A stretch of DNA of 64,000 nt from the human T2T-CHM13v2.0 reference genome, Homo sapiens. Shown in pieces: positions 20,710 to 27,711 of this stretch. Under the pieces are notes generated by a model, which was given only the letters and a program-made list of their open reading frames with translations, searched no databases and had not been told where the DNA came from. The position numbers and the translations under genes are program-made. The stretch lies in assembly GCF_009914755.1 (NCBI RefSeq), contig NC_060931.1; one strand, 5' to 3'. Each line of letters starts with the position of its first letter. Position 1 is the first letter of the stretch.

Positions 20710-21717
20710 TTAGCAATGGATCACCTTATTTATTTTTAATAAATAAAAAACCATTTTTTGTGATGTTAGGGTGTCAATTTTGGATCTTTCCTGCTTTCTC
20801 TTTTGGGCATTTAGTGCTATCAGATTCCCTCTACACACTGCTTTGAATGTGTCCCAGAGATTCTGGTATGTTGTGTCTTTGTTCTCATTGGTTTCAAAGA
20901 ACATCTTTATTTCTGCCTTCATTTCATTATGCACCCAGTAGTCATTCAGGAGCAGGTTGTTCAGTTTCCATGTAGTTGAGTGGTTTTGAGTGAGTTTCTT
21001 AATCCTGAGTTCTAGTTTGATTGCACTGTGGTCTGAGAGACAGTTTGTTATAATTTCTGATCTTTTACATTTGCTAAGGAGAACTTTACTTCCAACTATG
21101 TGGTCAATTTTGAAATAGGTGTGGTGTGGTGCTGAAAAAAATGTATATTCTGTTGATTTGGGGTGGAGAGTTCTGTAGATATCTATTAGGTCTGCTTGGT
21201 TCAGAGCTGAGTTCAATTCCTGGGTATCCTTATTAACTTTCTGTCTCATTGATCTGTCTAATGTTGACAGTGGGGTGTTAAAGTCTCCCATTATTATTGT
21301 GTGGGAGTCTAAGTCTCTTTGTAGGTCACTCAGGACTTGCTTTATCAATCTGGGTGCTCCTGTATTGGGTGCATATATATTTAGGATAATTAGCTCTTCT
21401 TGTTGAATTGATCCCTTTACCATTATGTAATGGCCTTCTTTGTCTCTTTTGATCTTTGTTGGTTTAAAGTCTGTTTTATCAGAGACTAGGAGTGCAACCC
21501 CTGCCTTTTTTTGTTTTCCATTTGCTTGGTAGATCTTCCTCCATCCTTTTATTTTGAGCCTATGTGTGTCTCTGCACGTGAGATGGGTTTCCTGAATACA
21601 GCACACTGATGGGTCTTGACTCTTTATCCAATTTGCCAGTCTGTTTCTTTTAATTGGAGAATTTAGTCCATTTACATTTAAGGTTAATATTGTTATGTGT
21701 GAATTTGATCCTGTCAT
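20710..21717 (-). CDS. L1 ORF2 N-terminal fragment: APE-like endonuclease (aa 1-320) plus 15 flank-derived residues
   Basis: [18 protein letters not shown]...IQETH...NIYAP...GDFN...KIDH...SDH: the catalytic motif residues are present. Reads through the inversion end into flanking DNA ([15 protein letters not shown]). Expression not shown. Confidence 0.6.
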
Positions 21718-21780
21718 TATGATGTTGGCTGGTTATTTTGCTCGTTAGTTGATGGAGTTTCTTCCTAGCCTCGATGGTCT

Positions 21781-22797
21781 TTACAATTTGGCATGATTTT
21801 GCAGTGGCTGGTACCAATTGTTCCTTTCCATGTTTAGCGCTTCCTTCAGGAGCTCTTTTAGGGCAGGCCTGGTGGTGACAAAATCTCTCAGCATTTGCTT
21901 GTCTGTAAAGTATTTTATTTCTCCTTCATTTATGAAGCTTAGTTTGGCTGGATATGAAATTCTGGGTTGAAAATTCTTTTCTTTAAGAATGTTAAATATT
22001 GGCCCCCACTCTCTTCTGGCTTGCAGAGTTTCTGCCGAGAGATCCGCTGTTAGTCTGATGGGCTTCCCTTTGAGGGTAACCCGACCTTTCTCTCTGGCTG
22101 CCCTTAACATTTTTTCCTTCATTTCAACTTTGGTGAATCTGACAATTATGTGTCTTGGAGTTGCTCTTCTTGAGGAGTATCTTTGTGGTGTTCTCTGTAT
22201 TTCCTGAATCTGAATGTTGGCCTGCCTTGCTAGATTGGGGAAGTTCTCCTGGATAATATCCTGCAGAGTGTTTTCCAACTTGGTTCCATTCTCCCCGTCA
22301 CTTTCAGGTACACCAATCAGACACAGATTTGGTCTTTTCACATAGTCCCATATTTCTTGGAGGCTTTGTTCGTTTCTTTTTATTCTTTTTTCTCTAAACT
22401 TCCCTTCTCGCTTCATTTCATTCATTTCATCTTCCATCACTGATACCCTTTCTTCCAGTTGATCGCATCAGCTCCTGAGGCTTCTGCATTCTTCACATAG
22501 TTCTCGAACCTTGACTTTCAGCTCCATCAGCTCCTTTAAGCACTTCTCTGTATTGGTTATTCTAGTTAATACATTCGTCTAAATCTTTTTCAAAGTTTTC
22601 AACTTCTTTGCCTTTGGTTTGAATTTCCTCCTGTAGCTCAGAGTAGTTTGATCATCTGAAGCCTTCTTCTCTCAACTTGTCAAAGTCATTCTCCGTCCAG
22701 CTTTGTTCCGTTGCTGGTGAGGAGCTACGTTCCTTTGGAGGAGGAGAGGCACTCGCTTTTTAGAGTTTCCAGTTTTTCTGCTCTGTTTTTTCCCCAT
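21781..22797 (-). pseudogene. L1 ORF1 (RNA-binding chaperone), frameshifted
   Basis: ATGGGGAAAAAACAG at 22797, stop at 21781. A -1 near 22754 and a +1 near 22568 give an early TGA; only the C-terminal 219 aa are open. Confidence 0.88.
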
Positions 22798-25682: not shown

Positions 25683-26700
25683 GAAAACTGGCTAGCCATA
25701 TGTAGAAAGCTGAAACTGGATCCCTTCCTTACACCTTATACAAAAATTAATTCAAGATGGATTAAAGACTTAAACGTTAGACCTAAAACCATAAAAACCC
25801 TAGAAGAAAACCTAGGCATTAACATTCAGGACATAGGCATGGGCAAGGACTTCATGTCTAAAACACCAAAAGCAATGGCAACAAAAGCCAAAATTGACAA
25901 ATGGGATCTAATTAAACTAAAGAGCTCCTGCACAGGAAAAGAAAGTACCATCAGAGTGAATAGGCAACCTACAAAATTGGAGAAAATTTTTGCAACCTAC
26001 TCATCTGACAAAGGGCTAATATCCAGCATCTACAATGAACTCAAACAAATTTACAAGAAAAAAACAAACAACTCCATCAAAAAGTGGGCAAAGGATATGA
26101 ACAGACACTTCTCAAAAGAAGATATTTATGCAGCCAAAAGACACATGAAAAAATGCTCACCATCACTGGCCATCAGAGAAATGCAAATCAAAACCACAAT
26201 GAGATACCATCTCACACCAGTTAGAATGGCAATCATTAAAAGTCAGGAAACAACAGGTGCTGGAGAGGATGTGGAGAAATAGGAACACTTTTACACTGTT
26301 GATGGGACTGTAAACTAGTTCAACCATTGTGGAAGTCAGTGTGGCGATTCTTCAGGGATCTAGAACTAGAAATACCATCTGACCCAGCCATCCCATTACT
26401 GGGTATATACCCAAAGGACTATAAATCATGCTGCTATAAAGACACATGCACATGTATGTTTATTGCGGCACTATTCAGAATAGCAAAGACTTGGAACCAA
26501 CTCAAATGTCCAACAATGATAGACTGGATTAAGAAAATGTGGTACATATACACCATGGAATACTATGCAGCCATAAAAATGATGAGTTCATGTCCTTTGG
26601 TGGGACATGGATGAAATTGGAAATCATCATTCTCAGTAAACTATCGCAAGAACAAAAAACCAAATACCGCATATTCTCACTCATAGGTGGGAATTGAACA
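25683..26700 (+). pseudogene. L1 ORF2 C-terminal region, disrupted
   Basis: ORF-track fragments [11 protein letters not shown]... and ...DLELEIPSDPAIPLLGIYP are separated by frameshifts. Confidence 0.88.
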
Positions 26701-27711
26701 ATGAGGACACATGGACACCGGAAGGGGAACATCACACTCTGGGGACTGTTGTGGGGTGGGGGGAGGGAGGAGGGATAGTTTTAGGAGATATACCTAATGC
26801 TAAATGACGAGTTAATGGGTGCAGCACACCAGCATGGCACATGTATACATATGTAACTAACCTGCACATTGTGCACATGTACCCTAAAACTTAAAGTATA
26901 ATAATAATGAAATAAAATAAAATAAACATAAAAATAAAAAAATAATAAAAAAATTAAAATAAAATAAAAAACCATTTTTTAATACAAATGTTTTGAGGAT
27001 AGTGTGATGTTAATCAGATGCATTTATGGTAGTGTATTTTTAGACACTCTACAGATGACTGTAAAATAAATTGTATGTATTTGGAGGTAGAGGGGGGAAA
27101 AAAGAAGTATTACTTGCCCCTAGAATTTTATAATAAAAACTAATGTTTATTTTCTATTTCACTGTCTCTAGAAAGAGTTCTATTTTATTGTAAATTATAA
27201 GAGCAGTTTAATAATAAAGTCTTCTAAATAAAACATTTCCACTAAATTTATAGCATCTTCTATCTCTGCTCAAGATTCCCAATTTTGCATAAATATTCCT
27301 TCAGTTTAAATTTATATTTGTCGTGATTCTTAAATCTTGATAAAAGAGAAAAAGTACTCCTTTAGAACTAAGTGATATGTAACAGCTCTCTCATATAATA
27401 AATTAACTTCAGAATAACCTTCACATAATGCATTCATTTTGTTTTTCCTTTGTTTATAAAAAAAAGTGCTCTTGGGAAATGGACAAGTTTCTGAAACACT
27501 CAGTTCACAGCATTCACTTTTTTAGCGTTAAACATCAGGTATTTTATGACCCAACTGGCACATAATGCAAAAATATATGTATATATCTTTTCTAGTGGAG
27601 GATTAATGAGGTGGATGTTTATTTTGTGGTTATTTTTAGTGAAGAATTAGTAGAGCGGCTGTTTAAAGAAAACACACTAACACATCAACAATATGGAATG
27701 ATATATTCTAT

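What the first reader, a model, noticed from the sequence alone, without database searches (positions are those of the whole stretch)
20710..26980. An inversion has split L1 ORF2 into two divergent open modules (endonuclease left, RT right) around one bidirectional promoter
Seen: the intact 5'UTR now sits in the middle of the element. On the - strand a 335-aa ORF holds ORF2 aa 1-320 with the EN catalytic motifs (N14, E43, Y115, D145, D205, H230 contexts). On the + strand an ORF covers aa ~319-936 with the PIP box and FADD. The two pieces meet almost exactly (shared SQ). Known: the L1 5'UTR carries a sense and an antisense promoter, and separately expressed EN- and RT-containing ORF2 fragments have been reported to support Alu mobilisation in cell assays. 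Inference: this locus is a natural 'bipartite ORF2' cassette that could supply EN (DNA nicking) and RT as separate polypeptides. Caveats: ORF1 is broken, so translation of the EN ORF is uncertain. The RT piece lacks the conserved NLWD segment (left on the EN piece) and the C-terminal domain. CpG decay suggests long-term methylation, and both frames may be open simply because the element is young.
Basis: partly seen in the sequence, partly recalled or inferred. Interest (0 to 1): 0.8.

Follow-up and report, generated by a model that had tools for sequence, protein, structure and literature searches.

The report
Twin-primed inverted L1 fossil in DYNC1I1
This is one old, dead LINE-1 retrotransposon whose front half was flipped while it inserted, a common and well-described accident, and its two open reading frames show no sign of being kept by selection.

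Summary
A 335-aa minus-strand ORF (20710-21717) holds L1 ORF2p aa 1-320. A 652-aa plus-strand ORF (23724-25682) holds aa 319-936. The L1 5'UTR lies between them.

The structure is a single full-length L1PA3-like insertion with a 5' inversion made at integration by twin priming. A perfect 19-nt target-site duplication flanks the whole 6.2 kb. The two arms meet at the same L1 position, sharing 2-6 nt. The sense arm ends in an A-rich tail.

The open frames look neutral:
- In aa 1-936 this copy has 44 private substitutions, 31 replacement and 13 silent. That silent fraction equals the one in 39 sister copies (Fisher p=1).
- Substitution counts are ordinary, and promoter CpG decay is the strongest in the sample.
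- Having no lesion in 936 codons is a tail event of about 2-3% (0 of 34 sisters). It is unusual per copy but expected many times per genome.

Function as a "bipartite ORF2" is unlikely:
- ORF1 is broken, and a premature ORF1 stop is reported to reduce ORF2p expression.
- The RT piece stops at aa 936, and a published 950-delta ORF2p cannot make cDNA.
- All published RT fragments that supported Alu mobilisation ran to aa 1275.
- The same genome holds at least 40 loci with a full-length open ORF2 frame.

Verdict: ordinary, low interest.

The parts
20741..20759 (.). Left copy of the target-site duplication (19 nt)
   Evidence: It is an exact 19-nt match to 26962-26980. In 0 of 500 shuffles of the two 81-nt end regions was a shared word of 19 nt reached (maximum 13).
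20760..23827 (-). Inverted 5' arm: L1 5'UTR, ORF1 remnant, inter-ORF spacer and ORF2 codons 1-320
   Evidence: It is colinear with sister copies over arm positions 1-3067. Its end reads ...CCCTAACATCACAA, then TSD.
20710..21717 (-). 335-aa ORF: ORF2p aa 1-320 (endonuclease plus part of the Cryptic/tower region) followed by 15 non-L1 residues; the stop lies in flanking DNA
   Evidence: ATTAAA and AATAAA lie 20 and 26 nt past the L1/TSD boundary on this strand.
21781..22797 (-). ORF1 remnant (339 codons including the stop) with three in-frame stops at codons 42, 73 and 110
   Evidence: One search shows the stops. A private 1-nt deletion near 22754 and a private 1-nt insertion near 22568 account for the first two stops. 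Pfam finds Transposase_22, Tnp_22_dsRBD and Tnp_22_trimer on the open 228-aa part.
22798..23827 (-). L1 5'UTR of the long type, 1030 nt, with the YY1-box region AAGATGGCCG kept; it holds 22 CpG (observed/expected 0.285)
   Evidence: The first 500 nt hold 15 CpG, against a sister median of 24 (range 16-30, n=23).
22928..23050 (-). 5'UTR segment absent from 12 of 39 sister copies; it corresponds to the 129-bp region whose loss let L1PA3 evade ZNF93
   Evidence: Those 12 sisters give split alignments, 1-777 and 901-3067. Sister 5'UTR lengths are about 899-900 versus 1012-1029 nt. The literature link comes from passages of preprint 10.1101/429613.
23382..23456 (+). ORF0 remnant, 24 aa, in the same frame as the 23724 ATG and cut short by a stop
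   Evidence: The ORF0 start near L1 nt 451 comes from PMC10619931 passages.
23724..25682 (+). 652-aa ORF: a 34-aa leader read from the antisense 5'UTR, fused in frame to ORF2p aa 319/320-936
   Evidence: The leader with its ATG, open to the L1 5' end, is present in 22 of 23 oriented sisters, so it is a family feature.
23826..26961 (+). Sense 3' arm: ORF2 from codon 319/320, then the 3'UTR and the A-rich tail (26890-26961, 71% A)
   Evidence: It is colinear with sisters from arm position 1. The junction reads GGC|TCACAATTAAAA.
25680..25682 (+). Stop at ORF2 codon 937, which ends the RT-module ORF inside the wrist domain
   Evidence: The wrist spans 863-1061 according to PMC10830420 passages.
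26238..26575 (+). Stretch bounded by two private 1-nt deletions (near 26238 and near 26575) that frameshift the ORF2 C-terminal third
   Evidence: The deletions are seen against 34 and 30 sister alignments respectively.
26962..26980 (.). Right copy of the target-site duplication (19 nt), directly after the A-rich tail

Best explanation
One L1 RNA of the L1PA3-like 'long 5'UTR' type inserted once into what is now a DYNC1I1 intron. It inserted by target-primed reverse transcription with twin priming.

The proposed sequence of events is:
- The bottom-strand nick primed on the poly(A) tail and copied the 3' part of the RNA back to ORF2 codon 319/320.
- The top-strand 3' end (...CCATTTTTT) annealed internally at the AA of ...CACAAUU.
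- From there it copied the remaining 5' part essentially to the RNA's 5' end.
- The two cDNAs were then joined.

The result is [TSD][antisense L1 nt ~8-3070][sense L1 nt ~3065-end, A-tail][TSD]. The 5'UTR therefore sits in the middle and its antisense side faces the RT arm.

Since insertion the copy has decayed neutrally. The 936 lesion-free ORF2 codons are a chance survivor (about 2-3% per copy). The in-frame ATG leader is a family feature of the antisense 5'UTR that happened to land in frame (a 1 in 3 chance). No protein function is indicated.

Shown here: the anatomy, the TSD, the junctions, and the neutral substitution pattern. Inferred: the order of priming events, the insertion age (roughly great-ape ancestor), and the absence of protein function.
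For: Structure:
- An exact 19-nt TSD flanks both arms; 0 of 500 shuffles reach 19 nt.
- An A-rich tail abuts the right TSD.
- The two arms are adjacent pieces of one L1. Colinear sisters read ...CCCTAACATCACAATTAAAA (23 of 27 sisters holding the exact probe). Our arms end and begin within TCACAA, so 2-6 nt are shared and nothing is lost.
- There are 2-nt microhomologies at the 5' junction (TT of the TSD against AA of L1) and at the inversion junction (TC). This matches the published profile: only 4.6% of 5'-inverted L1s lack microhomology and about 70% have 2-5 bp (PMC2912911 passages).
- 5'-inverted L1s made up 639 of 2068 (30.9%) human- and chimpanzee-specific L1 insertions (same paper).

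Neutral decay:
- Private substitutions per region are typical. Ours versus sister median: 5'UTR 11/17, ORF1 11/15, EN 17/14, RT 27/26, ORF2 C-terminus 19/15.
- In aa 1-936 there are 31 replacement, 13 silent and 0 nonsense changes. The silent fraction is 0.295. The sisters pooled give 0.290 (1081/468/65), Fisher p=1.0.
- The total lesion load is ordinary. There are 6 independent lesions in ORF1 and the ORF2 C-terminus. Sisters carry about 0.004 lesions per codon (3.9 per 936 codons; ORF1 is open in 10 of 39).
- The promoter CpG count is the lowest in the sample: 15, against 16-30 in 23 sisters.
Against: - A lesion-free aa 1-936 was seen in 0 of 34 sisters (95% upper bound 8.4%). The Poisson or negative-binomial P(0) is 2-3.4%.
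- Given 6 lesions in 1613 codons, all falling outside those 936 codons has probability 0.0055. This test is post hoc, on a locus that was picked because its frames are open.
- The silent/replacement test on 44 changes can exclude strong constraint (roughly omega below 0.5, my estimate) but not weak constraint.
- The sister sample is the 39 best-scoring of 6325 first-look candidates, not a random sample. A second sample could not be fetched.
- The nick-site sequence (TTAAT|AAAT on the top strand) only loosely resembles the recalled TTTT/AA preference.
- No outgroup empty site was available.
Confidence: 0.9

Rival explanations
1. Post-insertional inversion: a normal full-length L1 inserted, and later a chromosomal inversion flipped its first ~3.07 kb.
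For: The end product, an inverted 5' half, would look broadly similar.
Against: One breakpoint would have to fall exactly between the left TSD and the first L1 base, and the other inside ORF2. The junctions instead show the 2-6 nt duplication and 2-nt microhomologies typical of twin priming (PMC2912911 passages). I did not run an inverted-repeat scan at the two breakpoints.
Confidence: 0.03
2. Two independent L1 insertions lying head to head by coincidence.
For: Nested or adjacent L1s do occur. The flank of sister L028 is another L1, and L013 sits beside an older L1.
Against: - The arms break at the same L1 nucleotide to within 6 nt.
- Only one TSD pair exists, and it flanks both arms.
- The inverted arm has no poly(A) tail or TSD of its own.
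- Both arms show similar private divergence, 1.1-1.9%.
Confidence: 0.01
3. Functional bipartite cassette. The sense promoter yields an EN polypeptide and the antisense promoter yields an RT polypeptide. Together or separately these supply nicking and reverse transcription, for example for Alu.
For: - The EN catalytic residues, WD288-289, the PIP box and FADD are intact.
- There is no gap between the pieces. EN347-delta plus delta-348RTCys supported BAR, whereas pairs leaving 58- and 83-aa gaps did not (PMC4889948 passages).
- A tower deletion (delta 302-363) keeps RT activity in vitro (PMC10830420 passages).
- An ATG with G at -3 and A at +4 precedes the RT module.
- The L1 antisense promoter is reported active in L1PA1-L1PA6 (PMC9396940 passages).
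- Zero lesions in 936 codons is a 2-3% event.
Against: - The replacement/silent ratio is neutral.
- The RT piece ends at aa 936, and ORF2p 950-delta is 'incapable of cDNA synthesis' (PMC13103738 passages).
- The wrist and CTD are required for efficient retrotransposition (PMC10830420 passages).
- Stop read-through would not help, because two frameshifts follow.
- ORF1 is broken, and a premature ORF1 stop significantly reduces ORF2p expression (PMC4176336 passages).
- One to three short upstream ORFs (23382, 23463, 23645) precede the 23724 ATG in antisense transcripts.
- Promoter CpG decay is the strongest in the sample.
- The ZNF93-target region is retained.
- Private replacements include C661G in the QGCPLSP motif and S202F in EN.
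- The genome holds at least 40 other loci with an open ORF2 frame of 1281 aa or more.
Confidence: 0.03
4. A non-coding role, which is compatible with the best explanation. The internal 5'UTR acts as a promoter or enhancer inside the DYNC1I1 intron. It may give divergent non-coding or chimeric transcripts, with the ORFs irrelevant.
For: - The hub's table lists RefSeq 'enhancer' features at 22838-23438 and 23439-24038, which tile the 5'UTR and junction. This was given to me and I did not verify it.
- About 17% of recent L1s with a 5'UTR gave antisense chimeric transcripts in brain or glioma, and this was coupled to host-gene activity (PMC9396940 abstract and passages).
- Hundreds of L1HS-L1PA4 loci are expressed in human brain (PMC10619931 passages).
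Against: - CpG loss is strong.
- The ZNF93-target segment is retained.
- 'DYNC1I1' occurs in none of the 3 held supplement files of PMC9396940 nor the 1 held file of PMC10619931. This is weak evidence: methods that need unique flanking sequence would miss a flank that is itself L1.
- An antisense transcript must cross 3.1 kb of sense L1.
Confidence: 0.2

Closest known systems
5'-inverted L1 insertions made by twin priming (Ostertag & Kazazian 2001, recalled and cited within PMC2912911; survey in PMC2912911)
   Same: One TSD pair flanks both arms. There is an inverted 5' arm and a sense 3' arm with an A-tail. The arms are adjacent pieces of one L1. There is a small overlap at the inversion point and microhomology at the junctions.
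   Different: Here the inverted arm runs essentially to the 5' end of the L1 RNA. The whole element is present, and the promoter-bearing 5'UTR abuts the RT arm. None of the 39 sister copies with a 5'UTR showed this layout (34 are colinear through both ORF2 segments; the one tested on the far side, L014/L050, was negative).
Retrotransposition-incompetent full-length L1 loci able to encode truncated, EN-containing ORF2p (Kines et al. 2014, PMC4176336)
   Same: It is a dead L1 that still has an intact EN coding segment followed by a stop.
   Different: That set of 92 human loci required an intact ORF1. Here ORF1 is broken, and the truncation is made by the insertion junction rather than by a nonsense mutation.
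Bipartile Alu retrotransposition (BAR) constructs (Christian et al. 2016, PMC4889948)
   Same: ORF2p is split between the EN and RT parts inside the Cryptic/tower region with no gap, and WD288-289 lies on the EN piece.
   Different: In the passages read, BAR RT fragments ran to aa 1275, were codon-optimised, and worked far better with a Gal4 tag. Here the RT piece stops at 936. It carries a 34-aa foreign leader and 21 private replacements.
L1 antisense-promoter chimeric transcripts and ORF0 fusions (Speek 2001 and Denli 2015, both recalled and cited in PMC10619931; PMC9396940)
   Same: The antisense side of the 5'UTR reads out of the element into adjacent DNA. The ORF0 frame and the 23724 ATG share one frame.
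   Different: The adjacent DNA is the same element's own ORF2 in sense orientation. ORF0 itself is cut to 24 aa here. No transcript evidence was available.

Membership tests
Twin-primed 5'-inverted L1 insertion | A single target-site duplication flanks both arms | tested here: met
   An exact 19-nt repeat lies at 20741-20759 and 26962-26980. 0 of 500 shuffles reach 19 nt.
Twin-primed 5'-inverted L1 insertion | The 3' arm is in sense orientation and ends in a poly(A) tail next to the 3' TSD; the 5' arm is inverted and has no tail | tested here: met
   The tail at 26890-26961 is 71% A. The inverted arm ends at ORF2 codon 320, directly on the left TSD.
Twin-primed 5'-inverted L1 insertion | The arms are adjacent segments of one L1, with a small duplication or deletion at the inversion point | tested here: met
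   2-6 nt (within TCACAA) are shared and nothing is missing, compared with 27 sisters that hold the exact probe.
Twin-primed 5'-inverted L1 insertion | Microhomology at the 5' junction and at the inversion junction | tested here: met
   There are 2 nt at each junction. This is short, but lies within the published 2-5 bp mode (PMC2912911 passages).
Twin-primed 5'-inverted L1 insertion | An L1 endonuclease-type nick site at the 5' edge of the TSD | tested here: inconclusive
   The top strand reads TTAAT|AAATAAAAAA. It is A/T-rich but not the recalled canonical TT|AAAA.
Twin-primed 5'-inverted L1 insertion | An empty site with one TSD copy in a species lacking the insertion | not testable with these tools
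   Only this human genome was searchable.
   The best genomic 5'UTR matches are 93-95% identical and 97-98% identical. The copy keeps the 129-bp segment that 12 of 39 sisters lack. That makes it 'L1PA3-long' or L1PA4-like. No RepeatMasker or Dfam classification was available.
BAR-competent split ORF2p pair | An EN fragment with catalytic residues and Cryptic WD288-289, and no gap to the RT fragment | tested here: met
   The gap rule comes from PMC4889948 passages.
BAR-competent split ORF2p pair | An RT fragment that includes the complete RT/wrist and the Cys/CTD region through aa 1275 | tested here: not met
   The fragment ends at aa 936, and one stop and two frameshifts follow. ORF2p 950-delta is reported incapable of cDNA synthesis (PMC13103738 passages).
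BAR-competent split ORF2p pair | Both fragments are expressed and active | not testable with these tools
   No expression or activity data were available. Indirect evidence is negative (ORF1 stops, upstream ORFs, CpG decay).
Exapted (host-selected) L1-derived coding sequence | A deficit of replacement relative to silent changes since insertion | tested here: not met
   There are 31 replacement and 13 silent private changes. The silent fraction is 0.295 against 0.290 in the sisters, Fisher p=1.0.

The most novel reading that the evidence does not exclude
The layout places the L1 antisense promoter and a family-conserved antisense ATG directly upstream of, and in frame with, 618 codons of ORF2. 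This locus might therefore produce a locus-specific 652-aa 'leader-tower-fingers-palm-thumb-half-wrist' protein. It might also produce, from the other side, a 335-aa endonuclease. In hypomethylated cells such products could have some activity, such as RNA binding, dominant-negative interference with ORF2p, DNA nicking, or acting as a tumour neoantigen. The evidence here does not exclude expression. It argues only against selection and against RT or Alu-mobilising competence.
Probability: 0.03. Interest if true: 0.5.

Novelty: already known. Interest (0 to 1): 0.12.

Why it matters
Mostly it matters as a correction. An arrangement that looks designed, with two enzyme modules diverging from one bidirectional promoter, is the expected by-product of a common insertion accident followed by neutral decay.

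One practical use remains. The two junctions (L1 5' end fused to ORF2 codon 319, and ORF2 codon 320 fused to unique flank) are unique sequences. Reads or peptides crossing them would report sense and antisense promoter activity of one L1PA3-type 5'UTR without multi-mapping ambiguity.

If the EN ORF were expressed, it would add one more entry to the already described class of dead L1 loci that could still nick DNA.

Tried and rejected
- A second, independent control sample failed. It was to be 37 further copies picked with the other half of the 5'UTR.
- I tested whether the truncated sister L014 has the same inverted layout. Its upstream 7 kb (L050) holds no sense arm, so it does not.
- I considered reduced substitution rate, or gene conversion keeping the modules young. 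Private substitution counts in EN and RT are at or above the sister medians, so I rejected this.
- I considered that the ATG leader might be a locus-specific gain. It is present in 22 of 23 oriented sisters, so I rejected this.
- Literature on this locus or layout:
  - A search for DYNC1I1 together with L1 terms showed 0 occurrences of DYNC1I1 in the 12 papers listed.
  - 'Twin priming' plus 'antisense promoter' listed 12 of 22 papers, none about this layout judging by titles and abstracts.
  - Supplements of two brain L1 papers lack the gene name.
  - These searches are not exhaustive, and bioRxiv supplements are closed.
- Ostertag & Kazazian 2001 is not held.
- I ran no structure prediction or complex prediction. 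Halves of a solved protein would pass by likeness and would not bear on expression or selection.

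
Full report
**1. What is there**

The region 20741-26980 is one L1 element bounded by an exact 19-nt direct repeat. 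The repeat lies at 20741-20759 and 26962-26980. In 500 shuffles of the two end regions the longest shared word never exceeded 13 nt.

Reading the plus strand, the parts are:
- The left TSD.
- An inverted arm (20760-23827).
- A sense arm (about 23826 to 26961), ending in a 72-nt tail that is 71% A.
- The right TSD.

Read on the minus strand, the inverted arm holds:
- The L1 5'UTR (23827 down to 22798).
- An ORF1 remnant (22797-21781).
- The spacer.
- ORF2 codons 1-320 (from 21717).

The minus-strand ORF of 335 aa (20710-21717) aligns to human ORF2p, PDB 8uw3_A, over residues 1-320 (E=8.4e-201).
- N14, E43, Y115, D145, N147, D205, H230 and WD288-289 are unchanged.
- Pfam Exo_endo_phos matches residues 11-230.
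- Its last 15 residues are read from the TSD and flank.

The plus-strand ORF of 652 aa (23724-25682) is open stop-to-stop from 23565.
- It aligns to the same chain through residue 936.
- The PIP box and FADD 700-703 are unchanged.
- Pfam RVT_1 matches.
- Its first 34 residues are the antisense reading of the first ~100 nt of the 5'UTR.

**2. How the arrangement arose**

Twenty-seven sister copies hold an exact 21-nt probe from just inside our sense arm. They read ...CCCTAACATCACAATTAAAA across the break, 23 of the 27 identically.
- Our inverted arm ends ...CCCTAACATCACAA and then runs into the TSD.
- Our sense arm starts TCACAATTAAAA directly after the antisense 5'UTR end ...GGC.
- The two arms are therefore adjacent parts of one L1. 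They share 2-6 nt and lose nothing.
- Two bases at each junction could belong to either partner: TT of the TSD against AA of L1, and TC of the 5'UTR end against TC of ORF2.

The inverted arm reaches to within about 7 nt of the longest 5' ends seen in sisters.

These features are the signature of twin priming as summarised in PMC2912911 (abstract and passages):
- One TSD pair flanking both arms.
- A tail on the sense arm only.
- A small overlap at the inversion point.
- Short microhomologies.

That survey gives these figures:
- 5'-inverted insertions were 639 of 2068 (30.9%) human- and chimpanzee-specific L1 insertions.
- They are about 10% of all human L1 copies.
- Only 28 of 605 lacked 5' microhomology.

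The original twin-priming paper is not held, so I cite it from recall and through that paper.

Two alternatives fit poorly:
- A later chromosomal inversion would need a breakpoint exactly at the TSD/L1 boundary.
- Two independent insertions would not share a breakpoint and a single TSD pair.

The less common aspect is that the inverted arm is complete. That puts the promoter-bearing 5'UTR in the middle. None of the 39 sisters has this layout:
- 34 are colinear through both ORF2 segments.
- L014, whose alignment stopped early, has no sense arm in the 7 kb upstream.
- The 95% upper bound for 0 of 39 is 7.4%.

**3. Family and age**

A 601-nt 5'UTR query found 39 other copies at 93-95% identity. 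All alignments ended at query position 521-532, which is at our junction (40 of 6325 first-look candidates were scored).

Twelve of the 39 lack our arm positions 778-900. Their 5'UTRs are about 899-900 nt, against 1012-1029 nt in the others. This is the 129-bp segment whose deletion in L1PA3 is reported to evade ZNF93 (preprint 10.1101/429613, passages). Our copy keeps it, so it is of the 'long' L1PA3 or L1PA4-like type. I could not run a formal subfamily classification.

Substitution differences to sisters in ORF2 are mostly 3.3-4.6%. An age of the order of the great-ape ancestor is my inference from recalled subfamily ages and was not tested.

**4. Are the open frames more than chance?**

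Control set. The control is the 39 sisters, chosen by 5'UTR similarity and therefore blind to ORF2 state. Only alignments covering at least 97% of a segment were counted. This dropped 4 sisters for the EN segment (L014, L021, L025, L036) and 4 for the RT segment (L013, L014, L021, L025).

Results:

| Segment | Sisters with no frameshift or stop |
|---|---|
| aa 1-319 | 13 of 35 |
| aa 320-936 | 0 of 35 |
| both | 0 of 34 |

- Lesions per copy in aa 1-936 ranged from 1 to 11.
- The mean was 3.9 (2.3 frameshifts plus 1.6 stops).
- This gives P(0) of 2.0% (Poisson) to 2.5-3.4% (negative binomial).
- The result is the same for the 23 'long' and the 11 'short' 5'UTR sisters.

So the EN ORF alone is unremarkable. 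The RT ORF is unusual, and the pair is a tail event of about 2-3% per copy.

Our copy is not young overall. It carries six independent lesions elsewhere:
- ORF1: a private 1-nt deletion near 22754, a private 1-nt insertion near 22568, and a stop at codon 110.
- ORF2: a stop at codon 937 and private 1-nt deletions near 26238 and 26575.

Six lesions all missing 936 of 1613 codons has probability 0.0055. This calculation is post hoc, on a locus selected because its frames are open. PMC9396940 (passages) counts 8744 recent L1s with a 5'UTR. With thousands of such copies, both tails are expected to be populated.

**5. Test for selection**

I called a substitution 'private' under these conditions:
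- The copy's base differed from a base shared by at least 80% of the others.
- At least 20 sisters were aligned at that column.
- The copy's own base occurred in at most 10% of the others.
- Alignments under 90% identity were dropped.

Private counts per region, ours versus sister median:

| Region | Ours | Sister median |
|---|---|---|
| 5'UTR | 11 | 17 |
| ORF1 | 11 | 15 |
| EN | 17 | 14 |
| RT | 27 | 26 |
| ORF2 C-terminus | 19 | 15 |

The open modules have therefore not evolved more slowly.

Within aa 1-936 our 44 private changes are 31 replacement, 13 silent and 0 nonsense.
- The pooled sisters give 1081, 468 and 65.
- The silent fractions are 0.295 and 0.290, Fisher p=1.0.
- Individual sisters with at least 20 changes range from 0.14 to 0.50 (n=36).
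- Given 44 changes, 1.8 nonsense changes were expected. Missing them is luck of about e^-1.8.
- The replacements include C661G in the QGCPLSP motif and S202F in EN.

This argues against purifying selection. With 44 changes it excludes strong constraint but not weak constraint.

**6. Could the two modules work?**

The EN side:
- The sense transcript would meet ORF1 stops from codon 42 onward.
- Kines et al. (PMC4176336, passages) state that a premature stop in ORF1 significantly reduces ORF2p expression.
- For that reason they required intact ORF1 when listing 92 human loci that might make truncated EN-containing ORF2p.
- Our locus would not have qualified.

The RT side:
- The antisense promoter is reported active in L1PA1-L1PA6, with start regions near +200 and +450 (PMC9396940, passages).
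- From +450 the transcript carries three short ORFs before the 23724 ATG. They start at 23382 (the ORF0 remnant, 24 aa), 23463 and 23645.
- From +200 it carries one such ORF, ending 4 nt before that ATG.
- The ATG and its 34-codon leader, open to the L1 5' end, occur in 22 of 23 sisters that could be oriented by an exact anchor. The fusion therefore needed only the right frame.

The RT protein itself:
- It would start inside the tower. Deleting residues 302-363 leaves RT activity intact in vitro.
- It would end at aa 936, inside the wrist (863-1061). The wrist and CTD are required for efficient retrotransposition (PMC10830420, passages).
- A 2026 study reports that ORF2p truncated at 950 is incapable of cDNA synthesis, whereas truncations at 1129, 1249 and 1262 are not impaired (PMC13103738, passages).
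- In the BAR assay the RT-containing fragments named in the passages I read ran to aa 1275 (PMC4889948).
- Read-through of the stop at codon 937 would run into two frameshifts.

Promoter state:
- The first 500 nt of our 5'UTR keep 15 CpG. The 23 sisters have 16-30, median 24. This points to long-term germline methylation.
- The ZNF93-target segment is retained.

Redundancy. A protein search of the same genome scored 70 other places.
- In 63 of them aa 320-936 has no stop.
- In 40 of them the surrounding open frame is at least 1281 aa (these are floors).
- Any EN or RT supply from this locus would therefore be redundant.

**7. What remains possible**

- The hub's table lists RefSeq 'enhancer' features at 22838-23438 and 23439-24038, which tile the 5'UTR and junction. 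I could not inspect their basis.
- Some promoter or enhancer activity of this 5'UTR in permissive cells is plausible; I put it at about 0.2.
- 'DYNC1I1' does not occur in the held supplements of two brain L1 transcript studies. Chimera callers that need unique flanking sequence would miss this locus, so this is weak evidence.
- No paper describing this locus or this layout appeared in the listings. These searches are not exhaustive.

**8. Verdict**

The functional inference is not supported. This is a known kind of structure in an annotated repeat, with an unusually long but apparently neutral stretch of open frame.

Noticed in passing
window 23382-23827 (+); sisters L018, L028, L033, L039, L041, L045: The ORF0 start codon and the 23724 ATG are in the same frame. 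In 6 of the 23 oriented sisters the ORF0 frame stays open all the way to the L1 5' end (148 codons within the 520 nt examined). In those copies ORF0 could read unspliced into flanking DNA. In our copy and 6 sisters it stops after 24 codons.
   Followed up: partly
window 22928-23050 (-): This copy keeps the 129-bp 5'UTR segment (the ZNF93-target region in the literature) that 12 of 39 sister copies lack. The sample therefore mixes 'long' and 'short' 5'UTR types, which are otherwise 93-95% identical to our copy in the 5'UTR.
   Followed up: partly
window 20729-20740 (-): ATTAAA and AATAAA lie 20 and 26 nt beyond the L1/TSD boundary on the minus strand. They sit inside the non-L1 tail of the EN ORF, just before its stop. 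A sense L1 transcript could in principle be polyadenylated there.
   Followed up: no
window 22798-23827 (-): The first 500 nt of this 5'UTR have fewer CpG (15) than any of the 23 sisters examined (16-30). Yet its private non-CpG-type substitution count is below the sister median, 11 against 17.
   Followed up: partly
L028:1-95 and L013:323-4235: The flank just upstream of sister L028's 5' end is another L1 fragment in the same orientation (88% identity to our sense arm 2621-2715). Sister L013 abuts an older L1 (85% identity) on the opposite strand. Both look like nested or adjacent insertions rather than twin priming.
   Followed up: no
window 22838-24038: The two RefSeq 'enhancer' features supplied by the hub are adjacent ~600-bp tiles. 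They cover almost exactly the L1 5'UTR plus the first ~210 nt of the sense arm. I could not check which assay they come from.
   Followed up: no
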